NCBI GenBank assembly: GCA_964016885.1
Contig: OZ024742.1
Location: 289,726,001 to 289,790,000 of the forward strand
From: Eledone cirrhosa
Taxonomy: Eukaryota
Direction of reading: 5' to 3'
DNA: 64,000 nucleotides
The notes below the pieces were generated by a model, which did no database searches, was not told the origin of the DNA, and worked only from the letters and a program-made list of their open reading frames with translations. Both the position numbers and the translations under genes were made by a program. Shown here piece by piece: positions 4,156 through 55,539 of this stretch. Each line of letters begins with the position of its first letter. Position 1 is the first letter of the stretch.

Positions 4156-4765
4156 ATGGTGGCTGCCAACTCGTTTTCAAGTACGGCCACTACTTTATAT
4201 CCATGTAGGAGAACCTCTACCGAAGCGCTGAACGAGTGTGATTTTTTAGTCCAGCCAGCGACTTGAAAACTCTGGTACAAACACTATACTTGTGACAATT
4301 ATTGACACATAGTGCTGGGCCCATGGTACCATGTGACAACAAGTGCAGAGAGATCTCCAGATATAAAGCAATGCTTGTGCCGTGAAGCTTTTATAGTGAG
4401 CAAAGGCACTGCACAAAGCCAGTCCCACTCTCTTAACCAAGATGATATTTACCAAAAAGAAGAACAAGTCAACATCATTGGATACCATCAGCGTTGCAGG
4501 TGTTATATCAAAGTTTTCCTTCTCCTAGAATTCTGCCTTGACAAAGGCTAAGGGGTCATCTCTCCCGGTGATTTTGGATGGCCATTCACTCTTAAGAGTT
4601 CCTTTGCCCTTTGACAGGTTTTGTTTTTAGTCCTGCAGGATGTCCAAAGTCACCCTCCTCACCAAGAAACCTTGGTGGGGTTGCCAGTTTAGTCGCCAAC
4701 GACCCGACCATGAGACAGGTTGTACTGGGATACATGTTACCAGTAGCACCAACTGGTGATCTGAC
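4156..4765. repeat. Interspersed repeat (copies at 63247-63550 and 63955-64000)
   Basis: atggtggctgccaactcgtttt...tttaccaaaaaga recurs near-identically; class unknown. Confidence 0.7.
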
Positions 4766-5067
4766 ATATATATACATACATATATACATAAATGGAATAG
4801 AATGAAACGAAATTTCATTTCTCACTCTTAGTACGGCACTTACTTAAATGTAAGTATGTATGTATACGTACATACATATATGTATACAGACGTACAGTAG
4901 CATGTATATATATACATACAGGCACACATATATATATGCACGTATCAGTTTACCGAACATTTATTATAATGCTCGGTTTGTTCGTTTGTAAACAAACAAA
5001 CAGCCTGAATTACGCCGTACAGTGTTTAGGCAACCACGTCACCTTTTTGTTCAACACTGACACAGGA

Positions 5068-5110
5068 ACGATGTACTAGTTTCAAGCTTATTAGCTATCA
5101 TCAGCACCGT
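5068..5110 (-). ncRNA. Minimal type-I hammerhead ribozyme
   Basis: acggtg CTGATGA t-agct-aata-agct-t GAAA c-ta-GTA catcgt; 6-bp stem I, palindromic stem III. Confidence 0.8.
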
Positions 5111-5662
5111 ATACCTTTCTGCCAGATGGTTGAACGTCCGAAAGTATATACTTTCCTTATGAAAATTAACGGCTGAGCAGCCTAATTTGCATATCGAGTG
5201 AGTTCAGTCGGCCAGGCGCACCGAAAACGATAAATGGAATAGAATGAAACGAAATTTCATTTCTCACTCTTAGTACGGCACTTATTTAAATGTAAGTATG
5301 TATGTATACGTACATACATATATGTATACAGGCATACAGTAGCATGTATATATATACATACAGGCACACATATATATGCACATATCAGTTTACCGAACAT
5401 TTATTATAATGCTCGGTTTGTTCGTTTGTAAACAAACAAACAGCCTGAATTACGCCGTACAGTGTTTAGGCAACCACGTCGGTAAACTGATACGTGCATA
5501 TATATATGTGTGCCTGTATGTATATATATACATGTGTGCCTGTATGTATATATATACATGCTACTGTACGTCTGTATACATATATGTATGTACGTATACA
5601 TACCTACTTACATTTAAGTAAGTATATACTTTCGGACGTTCAACCATCTGGCAGAAAGGTAT

Positions 5663-5705
5663 ACGGTGCTGACAATAGCTAATAAGCTTGAAACTAGTAC
5701 ATCGT
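5663..5705 (+). ncRNA. HHR variant with core lesion (CUGACAA)
   Basis: Inverted copy of the 5068-5110 HHR with G8>A. Confidence 0.6.
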
Positions 5706-5951
5706 TCCTGTGTCAGTGTTGAACAAAAAGGTGACGTGGTTGCCTAAATACTGTACGGCGTAATTCAGACTGTTCGTTTGTTTACAAACGAACAAACCGA
5801 GCATTATAATAAATGTTCGGTAAACTGATACGTGCATATATATATGTGTGCCTGTATGTATATATATACATGCTACTGTACGTCTGTATACATATATGTA
5901 TGTACGTATACATACATACTTACATATATACATACATATATACATATATAT

Positions 5952-7549: not shown

Positions 7550-7597
7550 GGTGAACTAACTGTTGGGTACATACATACATACATATATATATATATA

Positions 7598-7744
7598 AAC
7601 ATGGGTTATAAAGGCCATACAAAACTGAGAAAGCGGTCAAGAAGCCATAAACCACCTAAGCCGAAAAAACAAGTCAAGCTAAACAGGTCAGACAAAATAA
7701 ATGACATATTCATATATAAATATATATATACATATATATATAGT

Positions 7745-7775
<31 letters not shown>

Positions 7776-7890
7776 GAATATGTCATTTATTTTGTCTGAC
7801 CTGTTTAGCTTGACTTGTTTTTTTGGCTTAGGTGGTTTATGGCTTCTTGACCGCCTTCTCAGTTTTGTATGGCCTTTATAACCTATGTTT
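7598..7890. repeat. Inverted repeat (~120-bp arms) around a TA tract
   Basis: 7598-7717 is the reverse complement of ~7773-7890. Confidence 0.8.
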
Positions 7891-8030
7891 ATTGCTCTGG
7901 TCTTTTTTAGCCCAAGGAGCGCTTGCCAGCATGACTCGTAATTTGCGTTACGTTTCGCTTTTACTACCCGCCGAAATGCGATTCTCGCTGAATTTATATT
8001 TATATATATAGATATATATATATATATATA

Positions 8031-14707: not shown

Positions 14708-16807
14708 TCATCATCATCATCGTTTAACGTCCATCTTCCATGCTAGCATGGGTTTGGATGGGAGTTTTCCCACTTGAGGCAAGATTGGTTGTCTTGCTCG
14801 TATAGGACTGTCTGGCGGGTTTTCTATGACTGGATGCCCTTCCTAACATCAACCACATTACAGTGTAGACTGTGTGTTTTTTTGTAGTGACACCTACACG
14901 ACCTCATTTATTTAGGACTGGATGTTGTGGTACCAACATAACTTTACACCGAAAGGGGTGGTGTGGAGGGGTGGGGGAAGTGGGACGGGGGTGTATTTTG
15001 GTTAAGAGGTGCTTACTGACTGTAGGTTTCGCTTTGTACTTAGGCAAGGCGGGTCTTCTGTATTACTGCGTAGTGCCAAAGATCTCGGTCCAGTGACGTT
15101 GTCTTGGAGAGGTGTAAGTGTGTGAGGTCGGAATTTATCAAGTCGTCCCAGGTTTTCTGGGTCTACCTACTCCATAACTTCCATCAATTTTGATCGCCCT
15201 GCACTTTTTTATACAGCTGTCGTCTTTCATGCACATCACGTGACCATACGAACGTAGTCTTCTCTCGAGTAAACAACATCTGATCCCTCTTATTCCTAAT
15301 TTCTCACTTAGTTCATTTATGCTTTGCCGTTCACGTATATTACTATTACACATTCAACGGAGCATGCAAGCGTCATTCCTCCCCAGTCTGCATAGATCCT
15401 CTGCACACTATGCCCAAGTCTCACTGCCATGTAACATTGCTGTTCGTATGCAGGCATCATACAGCCTGCCTTTCATTCTTAGAGAGAAACCTTTTGTGGC
15501 CAACAGCGGTATAAGCTCTCTGAACTTTTTCCATCCCGTTCTGACTCTAGCTACTGTACTTTCAGAGCACCCTCCACCACTGCTGATTTCATCACCCAGG
15601 TAACGGAAAGTGTTTACTATTTCTATAGAACCATCTGGGCAATGGAAGGAGCTAGTATCCTTTGGACACTTGCTACTTATTGCACCTGAGCATTGGCCAC
15701 ATATAAAGTCTACGTTCTTAGATAGTTTACTTGAGATCCCACTACATCTTTTATGTACCCATACTTTGCATTTGGGACATAAAATGGAGTTTCTGCCCAC
15801 TCCTTTCCTACACACTGAGCATGGCCATTTCCCAGATGGGACCAGTACCCTATTTTCCTTCCTACATACTAGAACTTTAGTCTTAGACAGGTTAATTTTA
15901 AGGCCTTTTGATTCTAGGCCATGCTTCCATGTTTGGAATTTCTTCTCTAGTTCAGCCATTGATTCAGCTATGAGCATTAGATCATCGTATAGGAGTTCCC
16001 ATGGGCAGCTGGTCTTGAACTCCTCTGTTATAGCCTGAAGAGCAATAATAAATAGGAGGGGGCTAAGGACGGAGCCTTGATGAACACCAACTTTTACGCT
16101 AAACTCTTCACTATATTCGTTGTTAATTCTAACTTTGCTGACTGTTTCATTATACATGGCTTGTATAGCTCTCACAAGCCATTCATCAACACCTAGTTTT
16201 CTGAGAGCCCACCAGATACTGGGGCGTGGGACTCTGTCAAAGGCTTTCTCCAAGTCAACAAAAGCTAAGTATAGGGGTTTACTTTTAGCTAGGAACTTCT
16301 ACTGTAGTTGTCGTACAATAAAAAGAGTGTCTGTGGTACTTTTACCTGACACAAACCCGAACCTCATTTCATCTAGATCAATTCGCTCTCTGATTAGTTG
16401 CGCTATTACTTTTTCTGTGACCTTCATGACCTGGTCAATTAATTTAATGCCTCTATAGTTACCCTGATCTAGGCATCTCCTTTACCCTTGTAACAGTTAA
16501 TGATGCTGCTACGCCAGTCCTTCGGTACGAACCCATTCTGTATGACTTGGTTTACTATCCGAGTGACCATAGTGTGTCCCACCGTTCCAGATGCTTTCAG
16601 CATTTCAGCAACTATTTCCGAAGGCACAGACGCCTTGCCTGTCTTCATATCTTTGATTGCCTTACTTATTATACTACCTTCAACTTCCACTGCTGGTCCT
16701 TCTATTGGATCGATGTGGAGGAAACTGTCTTTCTCCCATTTATTCTCCTCATTTAGTAGCCTTTTGTAGTGACGCTTCCAAGCTACCTTATTATCAGCGT
16801 CAGTGAT
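14708..16807 (-). mobile_element. RTE LINE, 5'-truncated
   Basis: 281-aa RT ORF at 15408-16253; (CAT)n tail. Confidence 0.93.
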
Positions 16808-16867
16808 ATATATATCTATATTATATTATATATATATATTGTATTATATATATATATATTATATTAT

Positions 16868-17218
16868 CACATGGCTTAGTGGTTAGAGCATTGGGCTTGC
16901 AATCGAAAGGTTGTGAGTTCAATTCTATGACCGGATGATGTGTTGTTTCCTTGAACAAGACACTTTATTTCACATTGCTCCAGTTTACTCAGCTGTAGAA
17001 ATGAGATGATAGGGACCGGAATGAGATGATAGGGACTGGGGTCCCTATCATTTCCCTGCAAAGTGGTCGTGGAGGTGCCACGGCCAAAAAGCACCCAGCA
17101 CTTACTGTAAATGAGGTTGGTGTTAGGAAGGGCATCCAGCTGTAGAAATCAAGCCAGAATCAGTCCCCGTCCCACCGTTGCAAGCAGGGAAAAGCGGACG
17201 TAAAATGATGATGATGAT
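16868..17218 (+). mobile_element. tRNA-headed SINE with RTE-type tail
   Basis: tggcttagtggttagagc...gagttcaattc; ends aaaatgatgatgatg. Confidence 0.8.
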
Positions 17219-17280
17219 ATAGTGTGGAAGATGGACGTTAAATGAAGATGATGATGATATATATATATCATCATCATCAT

Positions 17281-18206
17281 TTCTAACTTAATAGCACCAC
17301 CTGGCGAAGTCTTACAAATCAGGGTTTGGGCACCATGGCCCACTCGAGCAGAGAGTTATTGTTTACGGGGGCATATCTGGGTGTAGGAGGCTTATCCGGG
17401 ATTTCTTGAAGGAATTTGTCCAAAGATTTCTTGGGGTATGTTTCTGTTTTGATGTGTTTTGGTGTAATGTTAAAGAGAGCAGGGCCAATTGAGGTGAAAT
17501 AATTGTGCCGTATTGTTGTTATGAGATGCGAGTGAGATTTTTGTCGTGGGCAGATAGCACGGGGCCCAAGCCTTGGGTGTACATTAAAGGTGATGTCAAC
17601 ATAATTTGGGCAAAGTTGATGGAATATTTTCCACATCATGCAGATAATGTAGCGCTCACGGCAACGTTGGAGAGAATAAAGGTTGAGCTTTTCTAATCGA
17701 CTCCAATAGTCAAGGCCTGTCATGCCATCTATCTTTGGGGTGCTTCAACTTTCATGATACTTTGTTTTGTGTGGGGAGATCACAGTGGACAACAGTATTC
17801 AAGGTAGGGTCAGGCAAAAGTGGAGAAGAGAAGGATAACAGTGTGGATATCTCTCGAGTGGAAGGTTCTGAGAATCCAGGAACACATTCTGTGGGCCATG
17901 TCAACTTTGCTGTTTATATGAGTGGCCCAGCTTATGTCCCAGGTCTCTGATGATGTTGGATGCCACTAGAGTTTCACCCGAAGGAAGAGAGTATGGTAGT
18001 TTCAGGGCATCCTTTTTTCCAAAGTGGATTAATTCAAACTTATTCTCATTCAACAGCATATTATTCATCTCTGCCAGTAGGTCTGACTGACGGCAAGTCC
18101 GGTCACCCACCTCATTGATGACCCTTTGGAGCTTAGAATCATCTGCGAAGATTCTTATGTTGCTGTGCTTGATGATGTCAGTAATGTCATTAATGTAGAT
18201 GATGAA
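17281..18206 (-). mobile_element. CR1-group LINE 3' fragment
   Basis: FIIYINDI, FADDSKL, RDLG, LYSLQR-RERY, DKFLQEIPD-P and NSLLEW motifs. Confidence 0.85.
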
Positions 18207-18222
18207 TATATATATATTATAT

Positions 18223-18670
18223 ATCATCATCATCACCGTTTTACGTCCGTTCTTCCACGCTAGCATGGGTTAGACGGGTTGTCCTGTTGTGTGCAGTGTC
18301 TGGTCGGCTGACCATGCCTTGCTCATACAGGAACTGATCTGGCTTGATTTCTACAGCTGGATGCCCTTCCTAACACCAACCTCATTTACAGTGAGTGCTG
18401 GGTGCTTTTTCGTGGTGCCTACACGTCCACTTTACAGTGTGGGCTGGGTGCTTTTTTGCTGTGGCACCTCCACGACCACCTTGCGGTGGGGGGTGTGGGG
18501 GCATATTGTTTATATGCTTCAGCATGTACCCATGGGAGGTCGGGTACTCTGTATTACTGCGTGACGCCAGAAGTCACGGTCGTGTGTCATTGTCTTTGAG
18601 AGGTGTAATTGGGTAAGGTCGGCTTTTATCACCTCATCCCAGGTCATCTTGGGTCTCCCCACTCCGCGGT
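18223..18670 (-). mobile_element. RTE 3' fragment (same subfamily as 58-2593)
   Basis: TWDEVIKADLTQLHLS and matching 3' UTR. Confidence 0.9.
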
Positions 18671-18711
18671 ATATATATATATTATATCTCTCTCTCTCTA
18701 TACATATATTA

Positions 18712-18937
18712 TATGTAAAAGGTAAACAGAAATAACAACACAATCGGTACAGTATATGGAAGGTATATATTAGGTTAACGCTTGATATAGCAGGAAGAGG
18801 GTCTTAACGTTTCGGACGCTAGGTTAGTCCATCAGAAGAAAGAATGAGAAATAAAATAGATTGAGGGGACGGGCAGGATGGAATTGGAAAAAATGTCTTT
18901 AGATAAAAATAACAGGTCCATTCATGTTGACATCTCT
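18712..18937 (-). mobile_element. HHR-family insert in TA tract (copy at 56014-56232); degenerate HHR at 18802-18839
   Basis: Near-identical to the 56.0-kb copy; tctt CTGATG...gtcc GAAA cGTT aaga. Confidence 0.6.
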
Positions 18938-18959
18938 TTTATATATATATATATATATA

Positions 18960-19350
18960 TAGATATACTATAAAGCTGACGCCCATATGTAAGTAACAAA
19001 CTTTCCGCCAAGCGGCTGGAACAAACACCACCAAATTTGCACCATATATGTAACTTTTTCCCAGTAAAAAAGTGAGGGTATTTTTGTCTACTGAATTTTG
19101 TTAAAAAGATTAAAGACATTATTTAAATATTCACTTCTTTAAAATTTTCAAATGTCAACACTTCCGGTTATATGACATTCCTAACGTCTTCACGAACCAA
19201 AGTATCATCTTTCTGTTTTCTTTCGGTTGCAACGTTTTTCGAAATATTTACTTCTGCGTTCACATATTGATTTTTTTTTAGTTTCAGAAGATCCTGTTAA
19301 GGGTGAAAGCAGCGATTCTTTGCTTAAACTTTAATCTGTTATTTTAATAT
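18960..19350 (+). mobile_element. Helitron-like non-autonomous fragment (related pieces at 23180-23350 and 53081-53330)
   Basis: tatactataaagctgac...cggctgg...ccaaatttg pattern typical of Helitron 5' regions; repeated in the window. Confidence 0.5.
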
Positions 19351-19356
19351 ATATAT

Positions 19357-19357
<1 letters not shown>

Positions 19358-19407
<50 letters not shown>

Positions 19408-19840
19408 GTTTAACATCCATATTCCACGCTTGCATGGGTTTGGACGGGAGTTTTCCCACTTGAGGCAAGAGTGGTTGTCTTGCTCGCATAGGACTGTCTG
19501 GCTGGTTTTCTACGGCTGGATGCCCTTCCTAACACCAACCACATTTACAGTGTGGAACTGGGAGGTTTTTACCGTGTTACCTACATGGCCACATTACAGC
19601 GTGGACTGTGTGTTTTTTTGTCGTGACACCTACACGACCTCATTTGTTTCGGGCTGGATGTTGTGACACCAACATAACTTTACATTGAAAGGGGTGGTGT
19701 GGATGGGGTGTGGGTAGTGGGACGGGGGTGTATTTTGTTAGAGGTGCCTACTGACTGTAGTAGGTTTCACTTTGTACTTAGGTAAGGCGGGTCTTCTCTA
19801 TTACTGTGTAGCGCCAAAGCTCTCAGTCCAGTGACATTGT
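19358..19840 (-). mobile_element. RTE 3' UTR/tail fragment
   Basis: Long (CAT)n tail plus the family 3' UTR. Confidence 0.88.
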
Positions 19841-19896
19841 ATATATATAATTATATATTTGTGTACAGATATTTTTGCATACACAAAAACAAAATA

Positions 19897-20136
19897 TAAA
19901 CAAATGTATTTATTTCACGAAAGCACAGACGGCTTATCCTCATTGTTACTGCCGATATGCCACCCAAAAAGTCCTAGCCTGGTCGCACGATCAGATTTTC
20001 CAGAAGAAAAAATGTTATAACAAACGTATTTATTTCACGAAAGCACAGACGGCTTATCCTCATTGTTACTGCCGATATGCCACCCAAAAAGTCCTAGCCT
20101 GGCCGCAAGATCAGATTTTCCAGAAGAAAAAATATT
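19897..20136. repeat. 120-bp tandem duplication
   Basis: aacaaa-gtatttatttcacgaaagcacagacgg...cagaagaaaaaat occurs twice. Confidence 0.9.
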
Positions 20137-20319
20137 ACTAGAGCAACAGAGAGACTAAGCTTCGCAATTACCATCAACAAAGCTCATGGGTCAAACCCTA
20201 AATGTGGCTGGTCTTCATCTGGGAAAACCATGGTCAATTGTATGTAGGATGTTCTAGGGTGCGCTCGCCAAACAATCTCTTCATCTTTGCTCCCGAGAGC
20301 AAAGCTTTTTTTAAAGTAA

Positions 20320-21290
20320 AATGACGGAGTAAAGGACTCGCGTATAATCCTGTAATCAAATAAGCTCAAAGGAAAGAGTTTTCCTGGGCACTTTAAAATA
20401 TAATATATAGAAGGGAAAAAACACAGGAGAGTGTGTTTTTTCATTTACAGGATGTTAAATCACCAGTGTGAAGATAATATAAGTTAAGAGAGGTATAGGA
20501 AAAACATTATAATTAAAAGTATAAATTAAAATGACAAACCTACCTCATAACTAAATCACACATGTACAAACTCACTGGGAGATTGTTTTGCCATATAGTG
20601 GGTTCCAATTCGGCCCAGTGGGTCATCAGCATGTGCAAAGACCGATATTGTCCGCACTACTAAACAGAGAACTATAGTAAACCACCTGTCGCAGGTGTAA
20701 AGAGAAGGGAAATACGTGCACGAGGCAGTGACCGGTGGTATGAACAAAACAAGCTGCTAGAAATGGCAGCCTATACTGTTCAATTTATGGTATTCGACAG
20801 CAGAGAGAAGGCATGGAGCAAATATCAAGTCAAATGACGGAGTAAAAGACTCGCGTATGATCCTGTAATCAAATGAGCTCAAAGGAAAGAGCTTTCCTGG
20901 GCACTTTAAAATACAATATATAGAGGGGAAAAAACACAGGAGAGTGTGTTTTTTCATTTACAGGATGCTATGCACATATTTCCCTTCTCTTTACACATGC
21001 GACAGGTGGTTTACTATAGTTCTCTGTTTAGTAGTGCGGACAATATCGGTCTTTGCACATGCTAATGACCCACTAAGCCGAACTGGAACCCACTATATGT
21101 AGAAACAATCTCCTGTTGAGTTTGTACATGTGTGATTTAGTTATGAGGTAGGTTTCTCATTTTAATTTATACTTTTAATTATGTTTTTCCTATACATCTC
21201 TTAGCTTATATTATCTTCACGCTGGTGATTTAACATCCTATAAATGAAAAAACACACTCTCCTGTGTTTTTTCCCCTCTATATATTGTAT
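20320..21290. mobile_element. ~513-nt tandem monomer plus inverted arm, with degenerate HHR-like core
   Basis: Direct repeat 20321/20834; 20970-21290 is the reverse complement of ~20400-20720; CTGATGA at 20623-20629 (-). Confidence 0.55.
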
Positions 21291-21305
21291 ATATATATTA
21301 TATAT

Positions 21306-21338
<33 letters not shown>

Positions 21339-21342
21339 TATA

Positions 21343-21695
21343 ACTGGAGGCAGCAGACAGATATTATGAGGGCGCGTTCTGGACGGAGAGGAAATTGTGG
21401 GAAGTGACACAATGCAGACAGTCAGACATACAGACAGATATTATAAGGGCGTGATGTTATATGTATGTATCTATCTAAAAAGAGAAAGACTAAGAATTAT
21501 AGGGAGAGATCGCTAAATCACCTAATGCGGTCCCTAGGGCATTGAAAATTTGAAATTTTTTTTGCTCAGAACACTCCCTGAAACATAAGTATTACATGTG
21601 TAAAGTTTGAAAACAGTCGGTTGGGTGCTTCTCGAGTTTTAGGGGTTCAAACTCGCACACACACAGACAGACATCCTCAGTTTTATATATATAGA
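21343..21695 (-). mobile_element. Helitron-like fragment
   Basis: Minus strand begins TCTATATATATAAAACTGAGGATGTCTGTCTG; 3' end unclear. Confidence 0.4.
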
Positions 21696-21752
21696 TATAT
21701 ATATATAGGTATATATTATATATATATAGATATATATTATATATATAGAGAT

Positions 21753-21827
<75 letters not shown>

Positions 21828-22019
21828 ATATATTATATATATATATATTATATATATATATATATTATATATATATATATATTATATATATATAGATATA
21901 TATTATATATATATAGATTATATATATATATATATATATACATTATATATATACATATATATATATATATTATATATATATATATTATATATTATAGATA
22001 TATATTATATATATATATA

Positions 22020-25308: not shown

Positions 25309-25690
25309 AAATTTCATTTCATTTTTTCCGTTTATCGTTTTCGGTGCACCCGGCCGATTAACCCACTCGATATGCAAATTGCGCTACTCAGCCATTAATA
25401 TGCATAAGGTAAGTATATACATTCAACAATCTGGCAGGAAGGTATACGTTGCTGACGATAGCTAATAAGCTTGAAACTAGTACAGCGTTCCTTTGTCAGT
25501 GTTGAACAAACGAGCAACGATGGTTGCTAGACACTACGGCTTAATACGGGATGTTTGTTTACAAACACACCGAGCATTATAATAAATGTTCGGTGAATCC
25601 ATACGTACATATATATATGTGTGCATGTATGTATATATATACATACTACTGTACGTCTGTATACATATATGTATGCATGTGTACATACTT
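25309..25690 (+). mobile_element. Diverged copy of the 442-nt HHR element
   Basis: Reverse-complement similarity to 4850-5260, reading through the monomer junction. Confidence 0.75.
25446..25488 (+). ncRNA. Minimal HHR
   Basis: acgttg CTGACGA t-agct-aata-agct-t GAAA cta GTA cagcgt. Confidence 0.8.
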
Positions 25691-25736
25691 ATATATATAT
25701 ATAGATATATATATATATTATATATATATTATGTAT

Positions 25737-27002: not shown

Positions 27003-28834
27003 TGAATGGGGTTGTTCCGAAGGACCGGCATAGCAGCATCATCGTTAACTGTTATAAGGGTAAATGAGACGCCCTAGATAGGAGTAACTATAGAGGCATT
27101 AAATTAATCGACCAGGTCATGAAGGTCGCGGAAAAAGTAATAGCGCAACTAATCAGAGAGAGAATTGACCTAGATGAAATGCAGTTCGGGTTTGTGTCAG
27201 GCAAAAGTACCACAGACGCTCTTTTCATAGTACGACAACTACAGGAGAAGTACCTAGCTAAAGGTAAACCCCTCTACTTAGCTTTTGTCGACTTGGAGAA
27301 AGCCTTCGACAGAGTCCCCCGCTCCATTATCTGGTGGGCTCTTAGAAAACTAGGCGTTGACGAATGGCTTGTGAGGGCTATACAAGCCATGTATAAAGAA
27401 ACAGTCAGCAAGGTTAGAATTAACAACGAATATAGTGAAGAGTTTAGCGTAAAAGTTGGCGTCCATCAGGGCTCTGTTCTCAGCCCCCTACTATTTATTA
27501 TTGCCCTTCAGGCTATAACAGAGGAGTTCAAGACCGGCTGCCCATGGGAACTCCTATACGCAGACGACCTGACACTCATAGCGGAATCAATGGCAGAGCT
27601 AGAGAAGAAATTCCAAACATGGAAGCACGGCCTAGAGTCAAAAGGACTTAAAATTAACCTGGCTAAGACTAAAGTTCTAGTTTGTAGGAAAGAAAATAAG
27701 GCGGCGGTCCCTTCTGGGAAATGGTCATGCTCGGTGTATAGGAAAGGCGTAGGTAGAAACTCCATTTTATGTCCTAAATGCAAAGTATGGGTGCATAAAA
27801 GATGTAGTGGGATCACAGGTAAGCTAACTAAGAACATAGATTTTACATGTGGCCGGTGTTCTGGTGCAATAAGTAGCAGCAAGTGCCCATAAAATACTAG
27901 CTCTTTCAATTGCGCAGAGGGTTCTATAGAAATAGTGGACAGCTTCCGTTACCTGGGCGATAAAATCAGCAGTGGGGGAGGGTGCTCTGAAAGTACAGTA
28001 GCTAGAGTCAGAACTGGTTGGAAAAAGTTCAGAGAGCTTATACCACTATTAGCTGCTAAAGGGTTCTCCCTAAAAATGAAAGGCAGGTTGTACGATGCCT
28101 GCATACGAACAGCAATGTTGCATGGCAGTGAGACCTGGGCATTGTGTACAGAGGATATACGCAGACTAGAGAGGAACGAAGCTTGCATGCTCCGCTGGAT
28201 GTGTAACAGTAATATACGTGAACGGCAAAGCATAAACGAACTAAGGAAAAAATTAGAGATAAGAGGGATCAGATGTTGTTTACTCGAGAGAAGGCTACGT
28301 TGGTATGGACACGTGATGCGCATGAAAGTCGATAGCTGTATAACAAAGTGCAGGACAATAAAGATAGACGGTAGCCACGGAATAGGCAGACCTAGAAAAA
28401 CCTGGGACGAGCTGATAAACTCCGACCTCACACACTTACACCTCTCCAAGACAATGTCACTGGACCGAGACCTTTGGCGGTACTCAGTAACAGAGAAGAC
28501 CCGCCTTGCCAGTAGGCATCTCTAACAAAATACACCCCGTCCCACCACCCCCACCCCATCCACACCACCCCGTTCTATGTAAAGTTATGTTGGTGCCGCG
28601 CCATCCAGGCCGAAACAAATGAGATCGTGTAGGTGTCACGACAAAAAAACACACAGTCCACGCTGTAATGTGGCCGTGTAGGCAACACGGTAAAAACCTC
28701 CCAGACCCACACTGTAAATGAGGTTGGTGTTAGGAAGGGCATCCATCTGTAGAAATCAAGCCAGAATCAGTTCCCGTCCCACCCTTGCAAGCAGGGAAAA
28801 AGTTGACGTAAAATGAAATTATGATGATGATGAT
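27003..28834 (+). mobile_element. Young RTE LINE, 5'-truncated, with swapped terminal tail
   Basis: ORFs 27119-27892 and 27935-28525 are separated by one stop codon. Confidence 0.93.
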
Positions 28835-28837
28835 ATA

Positions 28838-31800
28838 ATCCTGTCTCCCTGCCCCTCCCACCCATACATCCCACCCTCCCAACTTCAGAGTTGGTACCAT
28901 GAACGTAGGCACATTGAAAGGTCACTCAAATGAGGTTGTAGAGATACTTGAACATAAAGAAGTTGATGTTTGTTGTGTTCAAGAGACTACGTGGAGAGGG
29001 GTGTCTGCGAGATTCATCGTAGGTAAAAAACGATGCTATAAACTTTTCTGGCTGGGAAATGACATTATGTTAGCTGAAAAATGGGTAGATAAGGTAATTG
29101 ACGTAAATAGAGTGAATGACAGAATAATTGAATTAAGACTAGTTCTATATAGAACTACTGTGACAATAATATCTGCTTATGCACCCCAATCTGGTCTAGC
29201 TGATGTTATAAAGGATAGGTTCTATGAGATGCTAATGCACACTACCTCCCAAATAACCGACAGTGACTACTTAATTATTGCTGGCGATCTAAACGGTCAC
29301 GTTGGACAACATAGTGACGGCTATGATGGAATCCATGGAAATAGAAATGAGGAGGGCTTCAGAATCCTGGAATTCTGTGACGCAAATAGCCTAACTATCT
29401 GTAACACAAACTTCAAAAAACGTGTAAACCACTTGATGACCTATAGATCAGGGGAACATGCCAGCCAGATAGATTATATCCTTACTAGAAGACGGGACAA
29501 AATGTCTGTTGTAAACACTAAATCCATCCCCCGTGAAGAATGCACCTCCCAACATAGCCTAGTAGTTAGTGACCTCACAGTCAGGAATAGACGTACTCGA
29601 CGACAGAAGAGGCCTACCTTGAGGAGAAGAATATGGAAGTTGAAGGACCCCATAGCCAGTGACAAATTTAAAAGCTTATTACTTGATGCCTTTGACAATA
29701 AGGAAGAGCAATTAGAGACGTGCAATATACAGGAATAGTGGCAATTCTTGAAAGTGAACCTGCTGAAAGCAACGGATGAAATCTGTGGCTGGAGCAGACC
29801 GATAGGCAGGAGGAGAGTAACTTGGTGGTGGAACAGTAAGGTGGAAGAGACAATCAAGGCCAAAAAGCAGGCTTGGAAAGTATGGCAGGATGGGGGAAGT
29901 AGAGAGCACTATCAAGTGGCCAGGAGAGAAGCTGGGAGACAAGTGTACCTTGCAAAAAGGGTAGCAGAGGATAGAAAGTTCAAGCATGTTCTGCAACGTG
30001 AGGACCAAAAATGTGAGGTGTTCAGGATTGCTAGACAATGTGTCAAGGAAAACCGTGATATTGTCGGCGAGAAGTGTGTCCGTAATGATAATGGTGTACT
30101 TGCGCTCACTGATACTGATATGAAGATAGCCTGGAAGTGTCACTACGAGACACTATTAAATGAGAATAAATGGGAAAAAGATAGTCTGCCCCAAATCGAT
30201 CCAATAGAATGACCAGCGGTGCAAGTTAATGGTAGTATAATAAGTAAGGCAATCAAAGATATGAAGATAGGCAAGGCAGCTGGGCCTTCGGAGATAGTTG
30301 CTCAGATGTTGAAGGCATCTGGTATGGACACGCTATGGTCACCCGTATAGTTAACCAAGTCATACAGAATGGGGTCATACAAAAAGACTGGCGTAGCAGC
30401 AGCATCATTAACTGTTACAAGGGTAAAGGAGATGCTCTAGATAGGGGAAACTATAGAGGCATTAAGTTAGTTGACCAGGTCATGAAGGTCTCAGAAAGAG
30501 TTACAGCGCAACTAATCAGAGAGCGAATTGATCTAGATGAAATGCAGTTTGGGTTTGTGTCAGGTAAAAGTAAAACAGACGCTCTTTTCCTTGTACGACA
30601 ACTACAAGAGAAGTACCTAGCTAAAAGTAAACCCCTCTACTTAGCTTTTGTAGACCTGGAGAAATCTTTTGACAGAGTCCCCCGCTCCATTATCTGGTGG
30701 GCTCTTAGAAAACTAGGTGTAGATGAATGGCTTGTGAGAGCTATACAAGCTATGAATAATGAAACAGTCAGTAAGGTTAGAATTAACAATGAATATTGTG
30801 AAGAATTTAGTGTAAAAGTTGGCGTTCATCAAGGCTCTGTCCTTAGCCCCCTCTTATTTATTATTGCCCTTCACACTATAACAGAGGAGTTCAAGACTGG
30901 CTGCCCATGGGAACTCCTATACGCAGATGATCTAACACTCATAGCCGAATCAATGGCTGAACTAGAGAAGAAATTCGAAACATGGAAGCATGGCCTAGAA
31001 TCAAAAGGCCTTAAAGTTAACTTGTCTAAAGTTCTAGTTTGTAGAAAAGAAAATAGGGCACAGGTGCCCTCAGGGAAATGGCTATGCTCAGTGTGTAGGA
31101 AAGGAGTAGGCAGAAATTCCATTTTATGTCCCAAATGCAAAGTATGGGTACATAAAAAATGTAGTGGGATCACAGGTAAGCTATCTAAGAACGTAGACTT
31201 TATATGTGGCCAATGCTCAGGTGCAATAAGTAGCAAGTGTCCACAGGATACTAGCTCCTTCCATTGCCCAGATGGTTCTATAGAAATAGTAGACACTTTC
31301 CGTTACCTGGGTGACAAAATCAGCAGTGGTGGAGGGTGCTCTGAAAGTACAGTAACCAGAGTCAGAACGAGCTGGAAAGGTTCAGAGAGCTTATACTGCT
31401 GTTGACCACAAAAGGTTTCTCTCTAAAATTGAAAGGCAGATTGTATGATGCCTGTATACGAACAGCAATGCTACATGGCAATGAGACATGGGCATTACAT
31501 GCAGAGGACCTGCATAGACTGGAAAGGAACGAAGCATGCATGCTCCGCTGGATGTGTAATAGTAATATACGTGAACGGCAAAGCATAAATGAACTAAGTG
31601 AGAAATTAGGAATAAGAGGGATTAGATGCTGTTTACTTGAGAGAAGACTACGTTGGTATGGTCACGTGATGTGCATGAAAGATAACAGCTGTATAAAAAA
31701 GTGCAGGGCGATCAAAATTGATGGTAGTTACGGAGTAGGTAGACCCAGAAAAACCTAGGATGATCTGATAAATTCCGACCTCACACACTTACATCTCTCT

Positions 31801-32242
31801 AAGACAATGTCTCTGGACCGAGACCTTTGGTGTTACGCAGTAATACAGAAGACCCGCCTTGCCTATGTACAAAGCGAAACCTACAGTCAGTAGGCACCTC
31901 TTAACCAAATATACACCCCAATCTACTACCCCTACCCTATCCTCCCACTCCCACGAACAGCAAGAGAAAATGAGATCGAGTTTGTGTAGGTGTCACAACA
32001 AAAAACACACACAGTCCACGCTGTAATGTGGCCGTGTAGGTAACACGGTAAAAAGTTCCCAGTTCCACACTGTAAATGTGGTTGGTGTTAGGAAGGGCAT
32101 CCAGCCGTAGAAAACCTGGCAGATAGTCCTATAAGAGAGAGACACGGTCACCCGACCAGCCTTGCCTCAAGTGGGACAACTCCCTTCTAACCCATGCTAG
32201 CGTGGAAAACGGACGTTAAACGAAGATGATGATGATGATGAT
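28838..32242 (+). mobile_element. RTE LINE covering nearly the whole ORF (APE + RT + PHD-like), inactivated
   Basis: VGTMNVGTL, CVQET, SAYAPQ, GDLNGHVG, QIDYIL and H-LVV APE motifs; RT ORF 30335-31405; (ATG)n tail. Confidence 0.95.
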
Positions 32243-32262
32243 ATATTATATATATATATATA

Positions 32263-32482
32263 CATAAAGTTAGTTCCACAACAGTTAGTAAACCATATTC
32301 AAGAACACGTTTCACCTTGCAGATTTTCAACTTGAGTACTGGCTCAGGCCGAAAAACGGAAGTCTATATGAATATGGTTTGCTAACTGTTGTGGAACTGA
32401 ACTAACTTTATACCAAACTTGTCCCATGGACCGAGTGCTCTACTTACTATGGATATAACCTCCTAGTGTTCTACCACTATAC
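32263..32482 (+). mobile_element. Fold-back insert in TA tract
   Basis: ataaagttagttccacaacagttagtaaaccatattca pairs with tgaatatggtttgctaactgttgtggaac...aactttat. Confidence 0.6.
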
Positions 32483-33094: not shown

Positions 33095-33126
33095 TATATA
33101 TATTATATATATATATATATTATATA

Positions 33127-35691
33127 TCATCATCATCATCATCATCAACGTTTAACGTCCGCGTTCCACGCTTGCATGGGTTTGGACGGGGGTAGTCCCA
33201 CTTGAGGCAAGAGTGATTGTCTTGCTCGCATAGGACTGTCTGGCAGGTTTTCTACAGTTGGATGCCCTTCCTAGCACCAACCACATTTACAGTGTGGGTC
33301 TGGGAGGTTTTTACCGTGTTGCCTACACGGCCACATTACAGTGTGGACTGTGTGTTTTTTTGTCGTGACACCTACACGATCTCATTTGTTTCGGCCTGGA
33401 TGGCGCGGCACCAACATAACTTTACATAGAACGGGGTGGTGTGGATGGGGTGGGGGTGGTGGCGGGACGGGGGTGTATTTTGTTAGAGATGCCTACTGGC
33501 AAGGCGGGTCTTCTCTGTTACTGAGTACCGCCAAAGGTCTCGGTCCAGTGACATTGTCTTGGAGAGGTGTAAGTGTGTGAGGTCGGAGTTTATCAGCTCA
33601 TCCCATGTTTTTCTAGGTCTGCCTATTCCGTGGCTACCGTCTATCTTTATTGCCCTGCACTTTGTTATACAGCTATCGACTTTCATGCGCATCACGTGTC
33701 CATACCAACGCAGCCTTCTCTCGAGTAAACAACATCTGATCCCTCTTATCTCTAATTTTTTCCTTAGTTCGTTTATGCTTTGCCGTTCACGTATATTACT
33801 GTTACACATCCAGCGGAGCATGCAAGCTTCGTTCCTCTCTAGTCTGCGTATATCCTCTGCACACAATGCCCAGGTCTCACTACCATGCAACATTGCTGTT
33901 CGTATGCAGGCATCGTACAACCTGCCTTTCATTTTTAGGGAGAACCCTTTAGCAGCTAATAGTGGTATAAGCTCTCTGAACTTTTTCCAACCAGTTCTGA
34001 CTCTAGCTACAGTACTTTCAGAGCACCCTCCCCCACTGCTGATTTTATCGCCCAGGCAACGGAAGCTGTCCACTATTTCTATAGAACCCTCTGCGCAATT
34101 GAAAGAGCTAGTATTTTGTGGGCACTTGCTGCTACTTATTGCACCAGAACACCGGCCACATGTAAAATCTATGTTCTTAGTTAGCTTACCTGTGATCCCA
34201 CTACATCTTTTATGCACCCATACTTTGCATTTAGGACATAAAATGGAGTTTCTACCTACGCCTTCCCTACACACCGAGCATGACCATTTCCCAGAAGGGA
34301 CCGCCGCCTTGTTTTCTTTCCTACAAACTAGAACTTTGGTCTTAGCCAGGTTAATTTTAAGTCCTTTTGACTCTAGGCCGTGCTTCCATGTTTGGAATTT
34401 CTTCTCTAGCTCTGCCATTGATTCCGCTATGAGTGTCAGGTCGTCTGCGTATAGGAGTTCCCATGGGCAGCCTGTCTTGAACTCCTCTGTTATAGCCTGA
34501 AGGGCAATAATAAATAGTAGGGGGCTGAGAACAGAGCCCTGATGGACGCCAACTTTTACGCTAAACTCTTCACTATATTCGTTGTTAATTCTAACCTTGC
34601 TGACTGTTTCTTTATACATGGCTTGTATAGCCCTCACAAGCCATTCGTCAACGCCTAGTTTTCTAAGAGCCCACCAGATAATGGAGCGGGGGACTCTGTC
34701 GAAGGCTTTCTCCAGGTCGACAAAAGCTAAGTAGAGGGGTTTACCTTTAGCTAGGTACTTCTCCTGTAGTTGTCGTACTATGAAAGGAGCGTCTGTGGTG
34801 CTTTTGCCTGACACAAACCCGAACTGCATTTCATCTAGGTCAATTCTCTCTCTGATTAGTTGCGCTATTACTTTTTCCGTGACCTTCATGACCTGGTCGA
34901 TTAATTTAATGCCTCTATAGTTACTCCTATCTAGGGCGTCTCCTTTACCCTTATAACAGTTAACGATGATGCTGCTATGCCAGTCCTTCGGAACAACCCC
35001 ATTCTGTACGACTTGGTTAACTATGCGGGTGACCATGGTGTGTCCCACCGTGCCAGATGCCTTCAGCATCTCATCTCAGCAACTATTTCCGAAGGCCCAG
35101 CCGCCTTACCCGTCTTCATATCCTTGATTGCCTTACTTATTATACTCCCCTCGACTAACACTGCTGGTCCCTCTATCGGGTCGATATGGGGGAGACTGTC
35201 TTTCTCCCATTTATTCTCCTCATTTAGTAGCCTTTCATAGTGACACTTCCAAGCTACCTTCTTATCAGTGTCGGTGATGGCAAGTATGCCATCATCGTTA
35301 AGTACACACTTCGCCCCGACAATATCACGGTTTTCCTTGACGCATTGCCTGGCAATCCTGAACACCTCACGTTTTTGGTCATCGCGTTGTAGAACATGCT
35401 TGAACTTTCTTTCCTCAGCTTCCCTTCTTGCTAAGTACACTTCTCTCCTAGCTTCCCTCCTGGCCACTTGATAGTCTACTCTACTTCCCCCATCCCGCCA
35501 TACTTTCCAAGCCTGCTTTTTGGCCTTAATTGACCCCTCCACCCTACTGTTCCACCACCAAGTTACTCTCCTCCTGCCTACAGGCCTGCTCCAGCCACAG
35601 ACTTCGTCTGTCGCCAACAGCAGGTTTGCTTTCAGAAATTCCCACTGTCCCTCTATATTGTCCGATTCTAGATGCTCTTCCTTACTGTCGA
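33127..35691 (-). mobile_element. Young RTE LINE, 5'-truncated, intact 528-aa RT/C-terminal ORF
   Basis: ORF 33483-35069 with YADD; short frameshifting insertion near 35065. Confidence 0.95.
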
Positions 35692-35756
35692 TATATATAT
35701 ATAATATATATATTATATATATATATAATATATATATATATATATTATATATATAT

Positions 35757-35803
<47 letters not shown>

Positions 35804-35856
35804 TATATAATATATATATATATATATAATATATATATATATAATATATATATAAT

Positions 35857-35898
<42 letters not shown>

Positions 35899-35913
35899 AT
35901 AATATATATATAT

Positions 35914-35969
<56 letters not shown>

Positions 35970-44086: not shown

Positions 44087-44286
44087 NNNNNNNNNNNNNN
44101 NNNNNNNNNNNNNNNNNNNNNNNNNNNNNNNNNNNNNNNNNNNNNNNNNNNNNNNNNNNNNNNNNNNNNNNNNNNNNNNNNNNNNNNNNNNNNNNNNNNN
44201 NNNNNNNNNNNNNNNNNNNNNNNNNNNNNNNNNNNNNNNNNNNNNNNNNNNNNNNNNNNNNNNNNNNNNNNNNNNNNNNNNNNNNN
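44087..44286. other. Assembly gap (200 N)
   Basis: Run of N. Confidence 1.
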
Positions 44287-48879: not shown

Positions 48880-51183
48880 AATTTGTTTCTTTGTTCCAAT
48901 CTGACACTCAACTCCTTTCTTCTGCTAGGAGTTGTGACTGACACATAGTAGCAACAATGGAAAGATTGTTTCCCTTGTCTGATCTGACAATCAGCTCCTT
49001 TCTTCTGCTGGGAGTTATGACTGACACATAGTAGCAACAATGGAAAGATTGTTTCCCTTGTCTGATCTGACAATCAGCTCCTTTCTTCTGCTGGGAGTTA
49101 TGACTGACACATAGTAGCAACAATGGAAAGATTGTTTCCCTTGTCTGATCTGACAATCAGCTCCTTTCTTCTGCTGGGAGTTATGACTGACACATAGTAG
49201 CAACAATGGAAAGATTGTTTCCCTTGTCTGATCTGACAATCAGCTCCTTTCTTCTGCTGGGAGTTATGACTGACACATAGTAGCAACAATGGAAAGATTG
49301 TTTCCCTTGTCTGATCTGACAATCAGCTCCTTTCTTCTGCTAGGAGTTGTGACTGACACATAGTAGCAACAATGGAAAGATTGTTTCCCTTGTCTGATCT
49401 GACAATCAGCTCCTTTCTTCTGCTAGGAGTTGTGACTGACACATAGTAGCAACAATGGAAAGATTGTTTCCCTTGTCTGATCTGACAATCAGCTCCTTTC
49501 TTCTGCTGGGAGTTATGACTGACACATAGTAGCAACAATGGAAAGATTGTTTCCCTTGTCTGATCTGACAATCAGCTCCTTTCTTCTGCTAGGAGTTGTG
49601 ACTGACACATATTAGCAACAATGGAAAGATTGTTTCCCTTGTCTGATCTGACAATCAGCTCCTTTCTTCTGCTGGGAGTTGTGACTGACACATAGTAGCA
49701 ACAATGGAAAGATTGTTTCCCTTGTCTGATCTGACAATCAGCTCCTTTCTTCTGCTGGGAGTTATGACTGACACATAGTAGCAACAATGGAAAGATTGTT
49801 TCCCTTGTCTGATCTGACAATCAGCTCCTTTCTTCTGCTGGGAGTTGTGACTGACACATAGTAGCAACAATGGAAAGATTGTTTCCCTTGTCTGATCTGA
49901 CAATCAGCTCCTTTCTTCTGCTGGGAGTTATGACTGACACATAGTAGCAACAATGGAAAGATTGTTTCCCTTGTCTGATCTGACAATCAGCTCCTTTCTT
50001 CTGCTGGGAGTTATGACTGACACATAGTAGCAACAATGGAAAGATTGTTTCCCTTGTCTGATCTGACAATCAGCTCCTTTCTTCTGCTAGGAGTTGTGAC
50101 TGACACATAGTAGCAACAATGGAAAGATTGTTTCCCTTGTCTGATCTGACAATCAGCTCCTTTCTTCTGCTGGGAGTTATGACTGACACATAGTAGCAAC
50201 AATGGAAAGATTGTTTCCCTTGTCTGATCTGACAATCAGCTCCTTTCTTCTGCTAGGAGTTGTGACTGACACATAGTAGCAACAATGGAAAGATTGTTTC
50301 CCTTGTCTGATCTGACAATCAGCTCCTTTCTTCTGCTGGGAGTTGTGACTGACACATAGTAGCAACAATGGAAAGATTGTTTCCCTTGTCTGATCTGACA
50401 ATCAGCTCCTTTCTTCTGCTGGGAGTTATGACTGACACATAGTAGCAACAATGGAAAGATTGTTTCCCTTGTCTGATCTGACAATCAGCTCCTTTCTTCT
50501 GCTGGGAGTTGTGACTGACACATAGTAGCAACAATGAAAAGATTGTTTCCCTTGTCTGATCTGACAATCAGCTCCTTTCTTCTGCTGGGAGTTGTGACTG
50601 ACACATAGTAGCAACAATGAAAAGATTGTTTCCCTTGTCTGATCTGACAATCAGCTCCTTTCTTCTGCTGGGAGTTGTGACTGACACATAGTAGCAACAA
50701 TGGAAAGATTGTTTTCCTTGTCTGATCTGACAATCAGCTCCTTTCTTCTGCTGGGAGTTGTGACTGACACATAGTAGCAACAATGGAAAGATTGTTTCCC
50801 TTGTCTGATCTGACAATCAGCTCCTTTCTTCTGCTGGGAGTTGTGACTGACACATAGTAGCAACAATGGAAAGATTGTTTCCCTTGTCTGATCTGACAAT
50901 CAGCTCCTTTCTTCTGCTGGGAGTTGTGACTGACACATAGTAGCAACAATGGAAAGATTGTTTTCCTTGTCTGATCTGACAATCAGCTCCTTTCTTCTGC
51001 TGGGAGTTGTGACTGACACATAATAGCAACAATGGAAAGATTGTTTCCCTTGTCTGATCTGACAATCAGCTCCTTTCTTCTGCTGGGAGTTGTGACTGAC
51101 ACATAGTAGCAACAATGGAAAGATTGTTTCCTTGATCTGATCTGAGAATCAGATCCTTTCTTCAGCCAGGAATTGTGACTTAC
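48880..51183. repeat. 83-bp minisatellite, ~27 near-identical copies, intronic
   Basis: Unit ctgacaatcagctcctttcttctgct(g/a)ggagtt(g/a)tgactgacacatagtagcaacaatggaaagattgtttcccttgtctgat. Confidence 0.97.
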
Positions 51184-51280
51184 AATTGGCTCTTTTCCCT
51201 TATTGTTTGCATGTGTGCCTATGGGGGAAGAGCGGGGTTTAGTATTTCTTATTTAATTAAAATATAGAGGAAAATATTAC

Positions 51281-51375
51281 CATTTGAATCTTTAACTTGA
51301 ATAGCTGCTTGGTATTTCAGGAGTAAAATCACCATATTGTCATTCCCAGTTTGACAAGCTAACATCAAAGCTGTT
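51281..51375 (-). CDS. ANKRD26: Exon of ankyrin-repeat gene; (K)TALMLACQTGNDNMVILLLKYQAAIQVKDSN(G)
   Basis: 95-bp exon, ctttgttatag / gtaata; phase 2 to 1 joins the previous exon in frame; ankyrin repeat TALMLA motif. Confidence 0.9.
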
Positions 51376-54905: not shown

Positions 54906-55191
54906 ATATATATATATATATATAAAACTTATAAATAAACATTTAAAAAATATCATATTGACCTTTAATATTAAGCTGCTGTTTCTAATTAAACTATGGA
55001 ATATCCAGAGTCAGCTCGGCTTCTTATTAAATATTTCATTACTAAGATAATAACTTAACAGATGCTTCTTATATAGAATTATGTTTGAAGATTTTGATTT
55101 AAATAGGAACACTTTAAAATGGGTGGTTTTGTTTCATAGAACCTGAACTGATTTTGGCTGTGTTGGTATCAAAAGGGTTATAAATACTTAC

Positions 55192-55298: not shown

Positions 55299-55539
55299 CT
55301 GTTCAATAAAATACACACACACCTTTAACCCTTTAGCATTTAAACTGGCCATATCTGGCCAGAATTCTCTCACCTCTTTCTCTCCAAACCGACTGTAACT
55401 GACCACTCATATTGACATTAAGGTATTGTTCTCAAAATATCATAGATTCAATATTATGTGAGATAAATATGAGATAAAGCCTTTGCCATGAAAATACAAT
55501 AGTAAATATAGAGTGATGTAAAATAATAAAGGGTTAAAT

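What the first reader, a model, noticed from the sequence alone, without database searches (positions are those of the whole stretch)
4788..5925. 442-nt retrozyme-like monomer: ~1.6 tandem copies plus inverted segments
The sequence restarts exactly 442 nt later (4791 vs 5233). It carries one intact HHR per monomer (5068-5110, minus strand), has no real ORF, and is followed by two inverted blocks. Tandem head-to-tail copies with one HHR per unit are what reverse transcription around a self-cleaved circular RNA, or PLE-style tandem synthesis, would leave.
Basis: partly seen in the sequence, partly recalled or inferred. Interest (0 to 1): 0.8.

Follow-up and report, generated by a model that had tools for sequence, protein, structure and literature searches.

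The report
Hammerhead retrozyme with Penelope-type insertion
This is one copy of an abundant, small, non-coding mobile element carrying a self-cleaving ribozyme, a kind already known in animals, and the shape of its insertion points to Penelope-like retrotransposon enzymes as the machinery that copied it in.

Summary
A 442-nt non-coding unit (4788-5229) is followed by 251 nt of a second unit (1.57 units) and two head-to-head inverted blocks, all inside an 18-23-nt duplication of an AT microsatellite. The minus strand carries a type I hammerhead (predicted cut GUA|C, 5074/5073). One correction: the locus holds only one intact hammerhead. The second unit stops short of it and the inverted copy has a G8A core change, so this locus cannot release a unit-length circle; it is a product, not a source. 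A second, 84%-identical, permuted copy at 25309-25691 shares the head-to-tail junction, and public DNA runs show a high-copy dispersed family. It fits the known animal non-LTR retrozymes. This supports the published hypothesis that Penelope-like enzymes move retrozymes. Cleavage, expression, circularity and the partner element were not shown, and circular versus uncleaved linear template cannot be decided. New member of a known kind.

The parts
4768..4790 (.). Left copy of the target-site duplication in an AT/ATAC microsatellite (18-nt core 4770-4787; up to 23 nt with bases shared with the element ends)
   Evidence: Exact match to 5924-5946; the 20-nt core occurs in 3 of 104 microsatellite tracts of the window, two being these flanks
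4788..5229 (-). Unit A: full 442-nt non-coding unit, 38% GC, sense on the minus strand
4788..4847 (-). One-sided 3' extension ('tail'-like, about 60 nt), present at the left outer end and missing at the right outer end
   Evidence: Left end reaches 4788, right end stops at unit position 4848
4838..4855 (-). AC-rich hairpin on which three of four 3' ends or restarts fall (both inverted blocks and the second copy); inferred internal RT start site
   Evidence: Fold and end mapping; chance of 3 of 4 within 18 nt of a 442-nt circle 0.018 if uniform, but the AT-rich make-up is a confounder
5064..5116 (-). Type I hammerhead: core 5104-5098 and 5083-5080, 6-bp stem I (5110-5105 with 5073-5068), U.U at the base of a 4-bp stem II, 2-bp palindromic stem III; predicted cut between 5074 and 5073
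5140..5192 (-). Possible promoter: octamer (5185-5192) and a 16-nt TATA palindrome (5140-5155) upstream of the ribozyme; speculative
   Evidence: Motif positions; octamer also in the second copy at 25372; function untested
5230..5480 (-). Unit B: 251-nt 3' part of a second unit, 5'-truncated before the hammerhead
   Evidence: 97.6% to A; 4 substitutions plus 2-nt deletion
5479..5623 (+). Inverted block 1 (unit positions 4956 to 4838) with a 26-nt slippage duplication; joined to B by 2 shared bases
5620..5925 (+). Inverted block 2 (unit positions 5153 to 4848), joined to block 1 by 4 shared bases; its hammerhead has G8A
5924..5946 (.). Right copy of the target-site duplication, abutting the 3' tail of a LINE
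   Evidence: flank similarity
25309..25691 (+). Second, older family copy: 84% identical, circularly permuted (starts 28 nt before the unit junction), intact hammerhead core, 3' end merging into (TA)n

Best explanation
A single retrotransposition event of a non-autonomous, hammerhead-bearing 442-nt tandem element (animal non-LTR retrozyme type), mobilised in trans by a Penelope-like element (PLE) RT/GIY-YIG protein. Shown: the geometry, the target duplication, the shared junction, the family abundance. Inferred: the enzyme nicked both strands of an AT microsatellite about 20 nt apart. One strand primed at unit position about 4788 and copied 693 nt across the uncleaved or religated ribozyme site and the unit junction. 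The other strand primed about 60 nt away, on the AC-rich hairpin at 4838-4855, copied 306 nt, restarted at the same hairpin for 119 nt, and the two cDNAs were joined head-to-head by 2 shared bases. The gap between the two starts is the one-sided tail. All segments then aged by about 1%. The template was a multimer or a circle; source arrays elsewhere would be cut to unit length by hammerheads working as dimers through the palindromic stem III.
For: Geometry matches described PLE insertions: partial tandem, inverted 5'-truncated copy next to the 5' end, tail on one end, TSD around the whole, microsatellite targets. A purified PLE protein cuts and extends both strands at AT-rich DNA, starts at two internal sites, one in an AC-rich stem-loop, and the tail is the stretch between them. 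Here: TSD 18-23 nt, tail about 60 nt, 3 of 4 starts on one hairpin. Inverted blocks carry A's allele at all 5 sites that tell A from B; 11 private changes over 1042 nt are evenly spread over the four segments (p 0.20). The ribozyme differences between A and the inverted copy are the two opposite-strand decays of one CpG kept in the second copy. The junction is shared with the 84% copy. Stem I keeps 6 of 6 pairs with two-sided changes in a 4-sequence alignment. Family variants listed inside the ribozyme fall at N7, loop II, a G.U-to-A-U pair and the internal loop. Strand-switch joints inside the unit occur in reads of another sample of the same species label.
Against: No PLE ORF was found: none among 24 and 127 window frames scanned against Pfam, and no whole genome was held, so the partner is unidentified. 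The tail is about 60 nt, against 30-40 nt in the papers. The shared 3' ends lie in an AT-rich tract resembling the target (17 of 19 bases), so annealing to the target could explain them; the PLE tested in vitro started at a site not homologous to the target. The second copy's end is blurred over about 10 nt and shows no TSD or inversion. Five of the 6 covarying pairs come from one unrelated sequence (L001). 49 variant rows and 128 joint rows were not shown, and 3 of the 5 listed strand-switch joints inside the unit sit at a palindrome with 1-2 starts and may be mapping errors. This locus's own inversion junction was not among the listed joints.
Confidence: 0.75

Rival explanations
1. Template question within the best model: the RT rolled around a covalently closed 442-nt circle made by hammerhead cleavage and ligation, rather than copying an uncleaved linear multimer.
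For: Retrozymes of coral, mussel and axolotl accumulate as circles. Segments here look identical at insertion. The second copy is permuted. The unit folds well as a circle: -142 kcal/mol, z -7.6 against 100 shuffles, 66% paired, though AT palindromes inflate this.
Against: A young homogeneous array transcribed as an uncleaved multimer gives the same DNA. In the PLE tested in vitro, ribozyme cleavage was not needed and unprocessed RNA was the main substrate. Only 1 of 9 Xenopus dimers cleaved in vitro. The 2-bp stem III and U.U stem II base predict weak monomer cleavage.
Confidence: 0.45
2. The element is a SINE-like passenger of the resident APE-RT-PHD LINE, and the inversion arose by L1-type twin priming (mechanism recalled, not from a call).
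For: This LINE family fills about 44% of the window and flanks the insertion; twin priming also yields head-to-head inversions with TSDs.
Against: The unit shares no 3' tail with the LINE: its non-microsatellite part hits only its own copies in the window at E below 0.01. It has no poly(A) or (ATG)n end, its 3' ends are internal and permuted, and it is tandem.
Confidence: 0.1
3. A plain retrozyme copy inserted first, and the duplication and inversions arose later at the DNA level by fold-back or replication template switching in AT-rich palindromic sequence.
For: Junctions have 2-4 shared bases, the unit is rich in palindromes, and the 26-nt duplication probably is slippage.
Against: The duplication of target encloses the whole compound; all segments have similar ages; the head-to-tail junction is shared with an 84% copy; the right outer end coincides with the 3' end region of that independent copy.
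Confidence: 0.08
4. 442 nt is not a unit but a chance truncation point of a longer, autonomous PLE, with the RT restarting at the same site to give a partial tandem of pLTR pieces.
For: The inverted arm shows such a restart; PLE pLTRs carry hammerheads; summed contig depth falls toward the unit's 5' end in run X1, partly an edge effect.
Against: The independent 84% copy reads through the same junction for 28 nt; no ORF or Pfam hit in the unit; the ribozyme is canonical rather than the minimal PLE type.
Confidence: 0.07

Closest known systems
Animal non-LTR retrozymes (Cervera and de la Pena 2020, PMC7229834), especially mussel 350-390-bp repeats and axolotl HHR_Amex2
   Same: 150-450-bp non-coding tandem unit, low GC, one canonical type I hammerhead per unit, short stem III, U.U at the base of stem II as in HHR_Amex2, TSD longer than 4 bp, thousands of copies
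   Different: Only 1.57 units and one intact ribozyme at this locus; head-to-head inversion and one-sided tail, which the main text of that paper does not mention ('inverted' 0 occurrences); cleavage and circles not shown here
Retrozymes as PLE pLTR derivatives (Li, Clavereau, Pollet 2026, bioRxiv 10.64898/2026.07.22.740005)
   Same: Same proposed partnership with PLEs; monomers and partial derivatives are common
   Different: Their evidence is co-occurrence and pLTR homology in vertebrates; mine is the insertion footprint in an invertebrate-type genome. This locus fails their 'active' rule of two consecutive ribozyme-bearing units
EN+ Penelope-like elements (Adineta Pen2a, PMC3846280; Naiad/Chlamys, 10.1101/2021.04.23.441226; Anolis Poseidon, PMC11167929)
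   Same: Partial tandem, adjacent inverted 5'-truncated copy, tail on one end, TSD, AT-rich target, internal start at an AC-rich stem-loop
   Different: No RT or GIY-YIG ORF; tail about 60 nt rather than 30-40; canonical rather than minimal ribozyme; Naiads lack hammerheads
Non-autonomous Chlamys PLEs such as MRC1 (10.1101/2021.04.23.441226)
   Same: [quoted passage not shown]
   Different: Green-algal; they generally share 3' sequence with a known autonomous partner, which I could not test here

Membership tests
Animal non-LTR retrozyme | Canonical type I hammerhead in the unit | tested here: met
   Descriptor hit, 0 in 100 shuffles; pair counts; below Rfam threshold
Animal non-LTR retrozyme | Head-to-tail unit of about 150-450 bp | tested here: met
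   442 nt, 1.57 units; junction shared with the 84% copy
Animal non-LTR retrozyme | Non-coding, GC below 45-50% | tested here: met
   Longest ATG ORF 47 aa, GC 37.8%; one sub-threshold Pfam hit on a chance frame
Animal non-LTR retrozyme | Dispersed, high-copy family; TSD longer than 4 bp | tested here: met
   TSD seen for 1 of the 2 window copies
Animal non-LTR retrozyme | No LTR, primer-binding site or polypurine tract | not tested
   No terminal direct repeats other than the tandem overlap are seen; PBS and PPT were not searched
Animal non-LTR retrozyme | Self-cleavage of the RNA | not testable with these tools
   Needs an in vitro assay
Animal non-LTR retrozyme | Expression as unit-length linear and circular RNA | not testable with these tools
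   No RNA run was available to lay
'Active' retrozyme locus (Li et al. 2026 rule) | Two or more consecutive units each with a complete hammerhead | tested here: not met
   Unit B ends before the ribozyme; the inverted ribozyme is G8A and on the other strand. The locus is not filed as active
Autonomous Penelope-like element | ORF with PLE RT and GIY-YIG endonuclease | tested here: not met
   No ORF in the unit; none found in scanned window frames. Not filed as an autonomous PLE
PLE-type insertion | Partial tandem plus adjacent inverted 5'-truncated copy inside a TSD | tested here: met
PLE-type insertion | 30-40-bp tail on one end only | tested here: inconclusive
   One-sided extension present but about 60 nt
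PLE-type insertion | AT-rich or microsatellite target | tested here: met
   2 of 2 window copies end in AT microsatellites
PLE-derived non-autonomous element | Sequence homology to the pLTR of an autonomous PLE of the same genome | not testable with these tools
   No genome held

The most novel reading that the evidence does not exclude
This family is a retrozyme whose circular RNA is read directly by a PLE enzyme from two fixed internal start sites (an AC-rich hairpin and a site about 60 nt downstream), one per target strand, with its own microsatellite-like tract guiding it to AT repeats. With roughly ten thousand copies per gigabase, it would be a genome-scale record linking ribozyme-made circles to the PLE two-strand, two-start mechanism.
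Probability: 0.3. Interest if true: 0.65.

Novelty: new member of a known kind. Interest (0 to 1): 0.42.

Why it matters
Which enzyme moves animal retrozymes is still a hypothesis in the papers I read: PLEs are called a strong candidate and supported by co-occurrence and pLTR homology, with the mechanism left open. An insertion footprint is a different kind of evidence, and a high-copy family lets one count start sites, tails and inversions across thousands of events. It also offers a test of why PLE insertions are head-to-head: two-strand priming from two internal sites on a sense RNA. The element class itself is known, so the gain is mechanistic support, not a new system.

Tried and rejected
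No RNA holder listed; this says nothing on expression. Read-end pile-ups in run X21 (4529, 4532, 5167, 5184, 5187) coincide with AATT sites in the sequence and are read as restriction ends, not biology. A contig of X6 ending at 5073, next to the predicted cut, was rejected because contigs cannot show RNA ends and the run type is unknown. The read-laying tool skipped the AT-rich end of the unit, so family-wide 3' ends, the tandem joint and an empty allele could not be seen. Rfam: no match at gathering score; the miRNA-family hits at relaxed threshold are AT-repeat noise. No whole genome. Pattern scans: 1 locus in metagenome contigs (L001, an unrelated tandem unit sharing only the 31-nt ribozyme core), 2 in viral contigs (unrelated hammerheads), 0 in prokaryote genomes; none led to a partner PLE. 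The LINE protein search named hydrozoan, lancelet and clam relatives at 48-57% identity and did not fix the host taxon. The sigma-70 promoter scan is irrelevant for an animal and at chance level. Assembly artefact rejected: the repeated segments carry private changes. Earlier scan notes by sequence and by genome were empty.

Full report
Observation. The sequence restarts after 442 nt: 4788 pairs with 5230. Unit A is 4788-5229. Unit B, 5230-5480, is 251 nt with 4 substitutions and one 2-nt deletion, giving 1.57 units. Two inverted blocks follow: 5479-5623 copies unit positions 4956 to 4838 with an internal 26-nt duplication, and 5620-5925 copies 5153 to 4848. Junctions share 2 and 4 bases. The longest ATG ORF in a dimer is 47 aa and GC is 37.8%. 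With the ribozyme strand as sense, both outer ends are 3' ends and the 5'-truncated ends meet at 5480, a head-to-head layout.

Ribozyme. The minus strand at 5064-5116 holds a type I hammerhead: intact core, 6-bp stem I extended by further helices, a 4-bp stem II with a U.U pair at its base, a 2-bp palindromic stem III, and a predicted cut after GUA between 5074 and 5073 (read). My descriptor hit 2 sites in the window and 0 in 100 shuffled windows. Rfam gave nothing at gathering score and HH9 at 18.8 bits, E 0.14. In an alignment of A, the inverted copy, the second copy and L001, 47 of 48 cells pair and all 6 stem I pairs show a two-sided change; five of these come from L001 alone, and four sequences are few. 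The U.U stem II base also occurs in L001, in two unrelated hammerheads from viral contigs and in axolotl HHR_Amex2. Weak palindromic stems III are described as needing dimer formation. Cleavage itself was not tested.

The locus has one intact hammerhead. B stops at unit position 5040, before the ribozyme, and the inverted ribozyme has G8A. The second family copy keeps a CpG at core positions 7-8; A shows its decay on one strand (neutral position 7) and the inverted copy its decay on the other (G8A), which implies one template and later ageing (inference). A transcript of this locus cannot be cut twice to unit length, so it is an end product.

Family. A second copy at 25309-25691 is 84% identical, reads 28 nt through the same head-to-tail junction, has an intact core and ends in (TA)n. 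The junction is therefore a family feature and the copy is permuted relative to A. I laid 4 of the 23 listed runs on the unit plus left flank. Run X1 gave 20,483 contig records over a wide identity range, and raw-read run X21, another sample of the same species label, gave depths of 15,000-22,000 across the ribozyme from 12.5 million reads. If sampling were uniform that is about 8,000-12,000 copies per gigabase, and 2 copies in 64 kb would give about 31,000; X21 is a reduced-representation library and the genome size is unknown, so only the order of magnitude stands. Listed variants within the ribozyme fall at position 7, loop II, a G.U-to-A-U pair and the internal loop; 40 rows were shown and 49 were not. 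Five of 15 listed joints switch strand inside the unit; two have 4-6 starts, three sit at a palindrome with 1-2 starts and are doubtful; 128 rows were not shown. X1 may be the source sample and is not independent.

Insertion footprint. An exact repeat of up to 23 nt (18-nt core) flanks the whole compound, 4768-4790 and 5924-5946. Its 20-nt core occurs in 3 of 104 microsatellite tracts, two being these flanks, so it is low-complexity but unlikely by chance. The site lies in the microsatellite between a LINE tail and an RTE-like short element (the RTE label rests on a recalled motif). The left end runs about 60 nt beyond the right end, a one-sided tail. Both inverted blocks and the second copy start within an 18-nt AC-rich hairpin at 4838-4855; the fourth start is at 4788. 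The uniform chance is 0.018, but the tract resembles the target at 17 of 19 bases and the second copy's end is blurred over about 10 nt, so this is suggestive only. The inverted blocks carry A's allele at all 5 sites that separate A from B, and 11 private changes over 1042 nt are evenly spread (p 0.20): one event, about 1% old.

Mechanism. These marks are those described for Penelope-like elements: partial tandems, an inverted 5'-truncated copy next to the 5' end, a tail on one end and microsatellite targets, with a TSD around direct plus inverted repeats and head-to-head order. A purified anole PLE protein cuts and extends both strands of AT-rich DNA, starts at two internal RNA sites, one in an AC-rich stem-loop, and the tail is the stretch between the starts. 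I infer that a PLE protein acting in trans primed one strand at 4788 and the other at the hairpin, restarted once, and that the cDNAs were joined by microhomology (0.75). Against: no partner was found among 24 and 127 window frames scanned (127 of 150 candidate frames were sent, the rest being minisatellite repeats or the shortest), no genome was held, the tail is longer than the reported 30-40 nt, and the anole enzyme did not use target homology. Whether the template was a circle or an uncleaved multimer cannot be told from this DNA; I put the circle at 0.45, since related retrozymes form circles but ribozyme cleavage was dispensable for the anole PLE in vitro and only 1 of 9 Xenopus dimers cleaved. 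LINE twin priming (0.10), later DNA rearrangement (0.08) and a truncated autonomous PLE (0.07) fit worse, for the reasons listed under rivals.

Comparison and novelty. It meets the sequence-level features of animal non-LTR retrozymes, fails the 'active locus' rule of Li et al. and is not an autonomous PLE. Non-autonomous PLE passengers with tandem insertions are known (MRC1), and retrozymes are already proposed to be PLE derivatives. I did not find the inverted-plus-tail footprint described for a retrozyme: 'inverted' occurs 0 times in the main text of PMC7229834 and only in reference titles in the 2026 preprint and PMC7761336; searches were made, in a library lacking most subscription journals, and of the 7 papers listed I opened 3. 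Repeat databases were not available and may already hold this family. The host is an animal: named LINE relatives are a hydrozoan, lancelets and a clam; the flanking repeat recalls octopus genomes, from memory only.

Papers seen. PMC7229834: passages and parts 2-4 of 6; its supplement could not be read and may show insertion structures or further molluscs. 10.64898/2026.07.22.740005: parts 1-3 of 5 and passages; supplements not seen. PMC11167929: parts 1-2 of 4. PMC4209133: part 1 of 4. 10.1101/2021.04.23.441226, PMC3846280, PMC8967140, PMC7761336: passages only. An earlier scan note on a ribozyme-free tandem element with Penelope-type ends in another genome is unchecked and not counted as support.

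Verdict. Real feature, new member of a known kind, with a useful mechanistic footprint from one locus. Interest 0.42.

Noticed in passing
window 5185-5192 (-), 5140-5155, and 25372: An octamer motif and a 16-nt TATA palindrome lie just upstream of the ribozyme; the octamer is kept in the 84% copy. Newt satellite 2 is recalled to use an octamer-containing snRNA-type promoter; one search gave no paper confirming it.
   Followed up: partly
L001:1-1153 (ribozyme 747-788): Metagenome contig with an unrelated tandem unit of about 1075 nt whose hammerhead core matches at 29 of 31 bases but has a fully different, paired stem I; probably another animal retrozyme or satellite.
   Followed up: partly
L002:3985-4030 and L003:3985-4030: Two viral contigs carry hammerheads with the same U.U-based stem II but long stems III, in other topologies.
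   Followed up: partly
window 4158-4765 (-); related stretch 62716-63550: Short high-copy element with a zinc-finger-like C-terminal remnant, resembling an internally deleted RTE (label recalled); it sits in the same microsatellite as the retrozyme.
   Followed up: partly
window-wide, e.g. 27068-32266, 33105-35956, 57856-60455: One LINE family with APE, RT and a PHD finger after the RT covers about 44% of the window; most copies end in (ATG)n plus AT microsatellite.
   Followed up: partly
window 55191-55406 (-) and 51252-51458 (-): Ankyrin-repeat exon-like frames, suggesting a host gene on the minus strand; whether the retrozyme lies in its intron is unknown.
   Followed up: no
window 48899-51184: 83-bp minisatellite, 27.5 copies, 98% matches, next to an ankyrin frame.
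   Followed up: no
window 7595-7892: Near-perfect palindrome, 148-bp arms, 97% complementary, centred on an AT microsatellite.
   Followed up: no
window 44087-44286: Run of 200 N (assembly gap), far from the finding.
   Followed up: no
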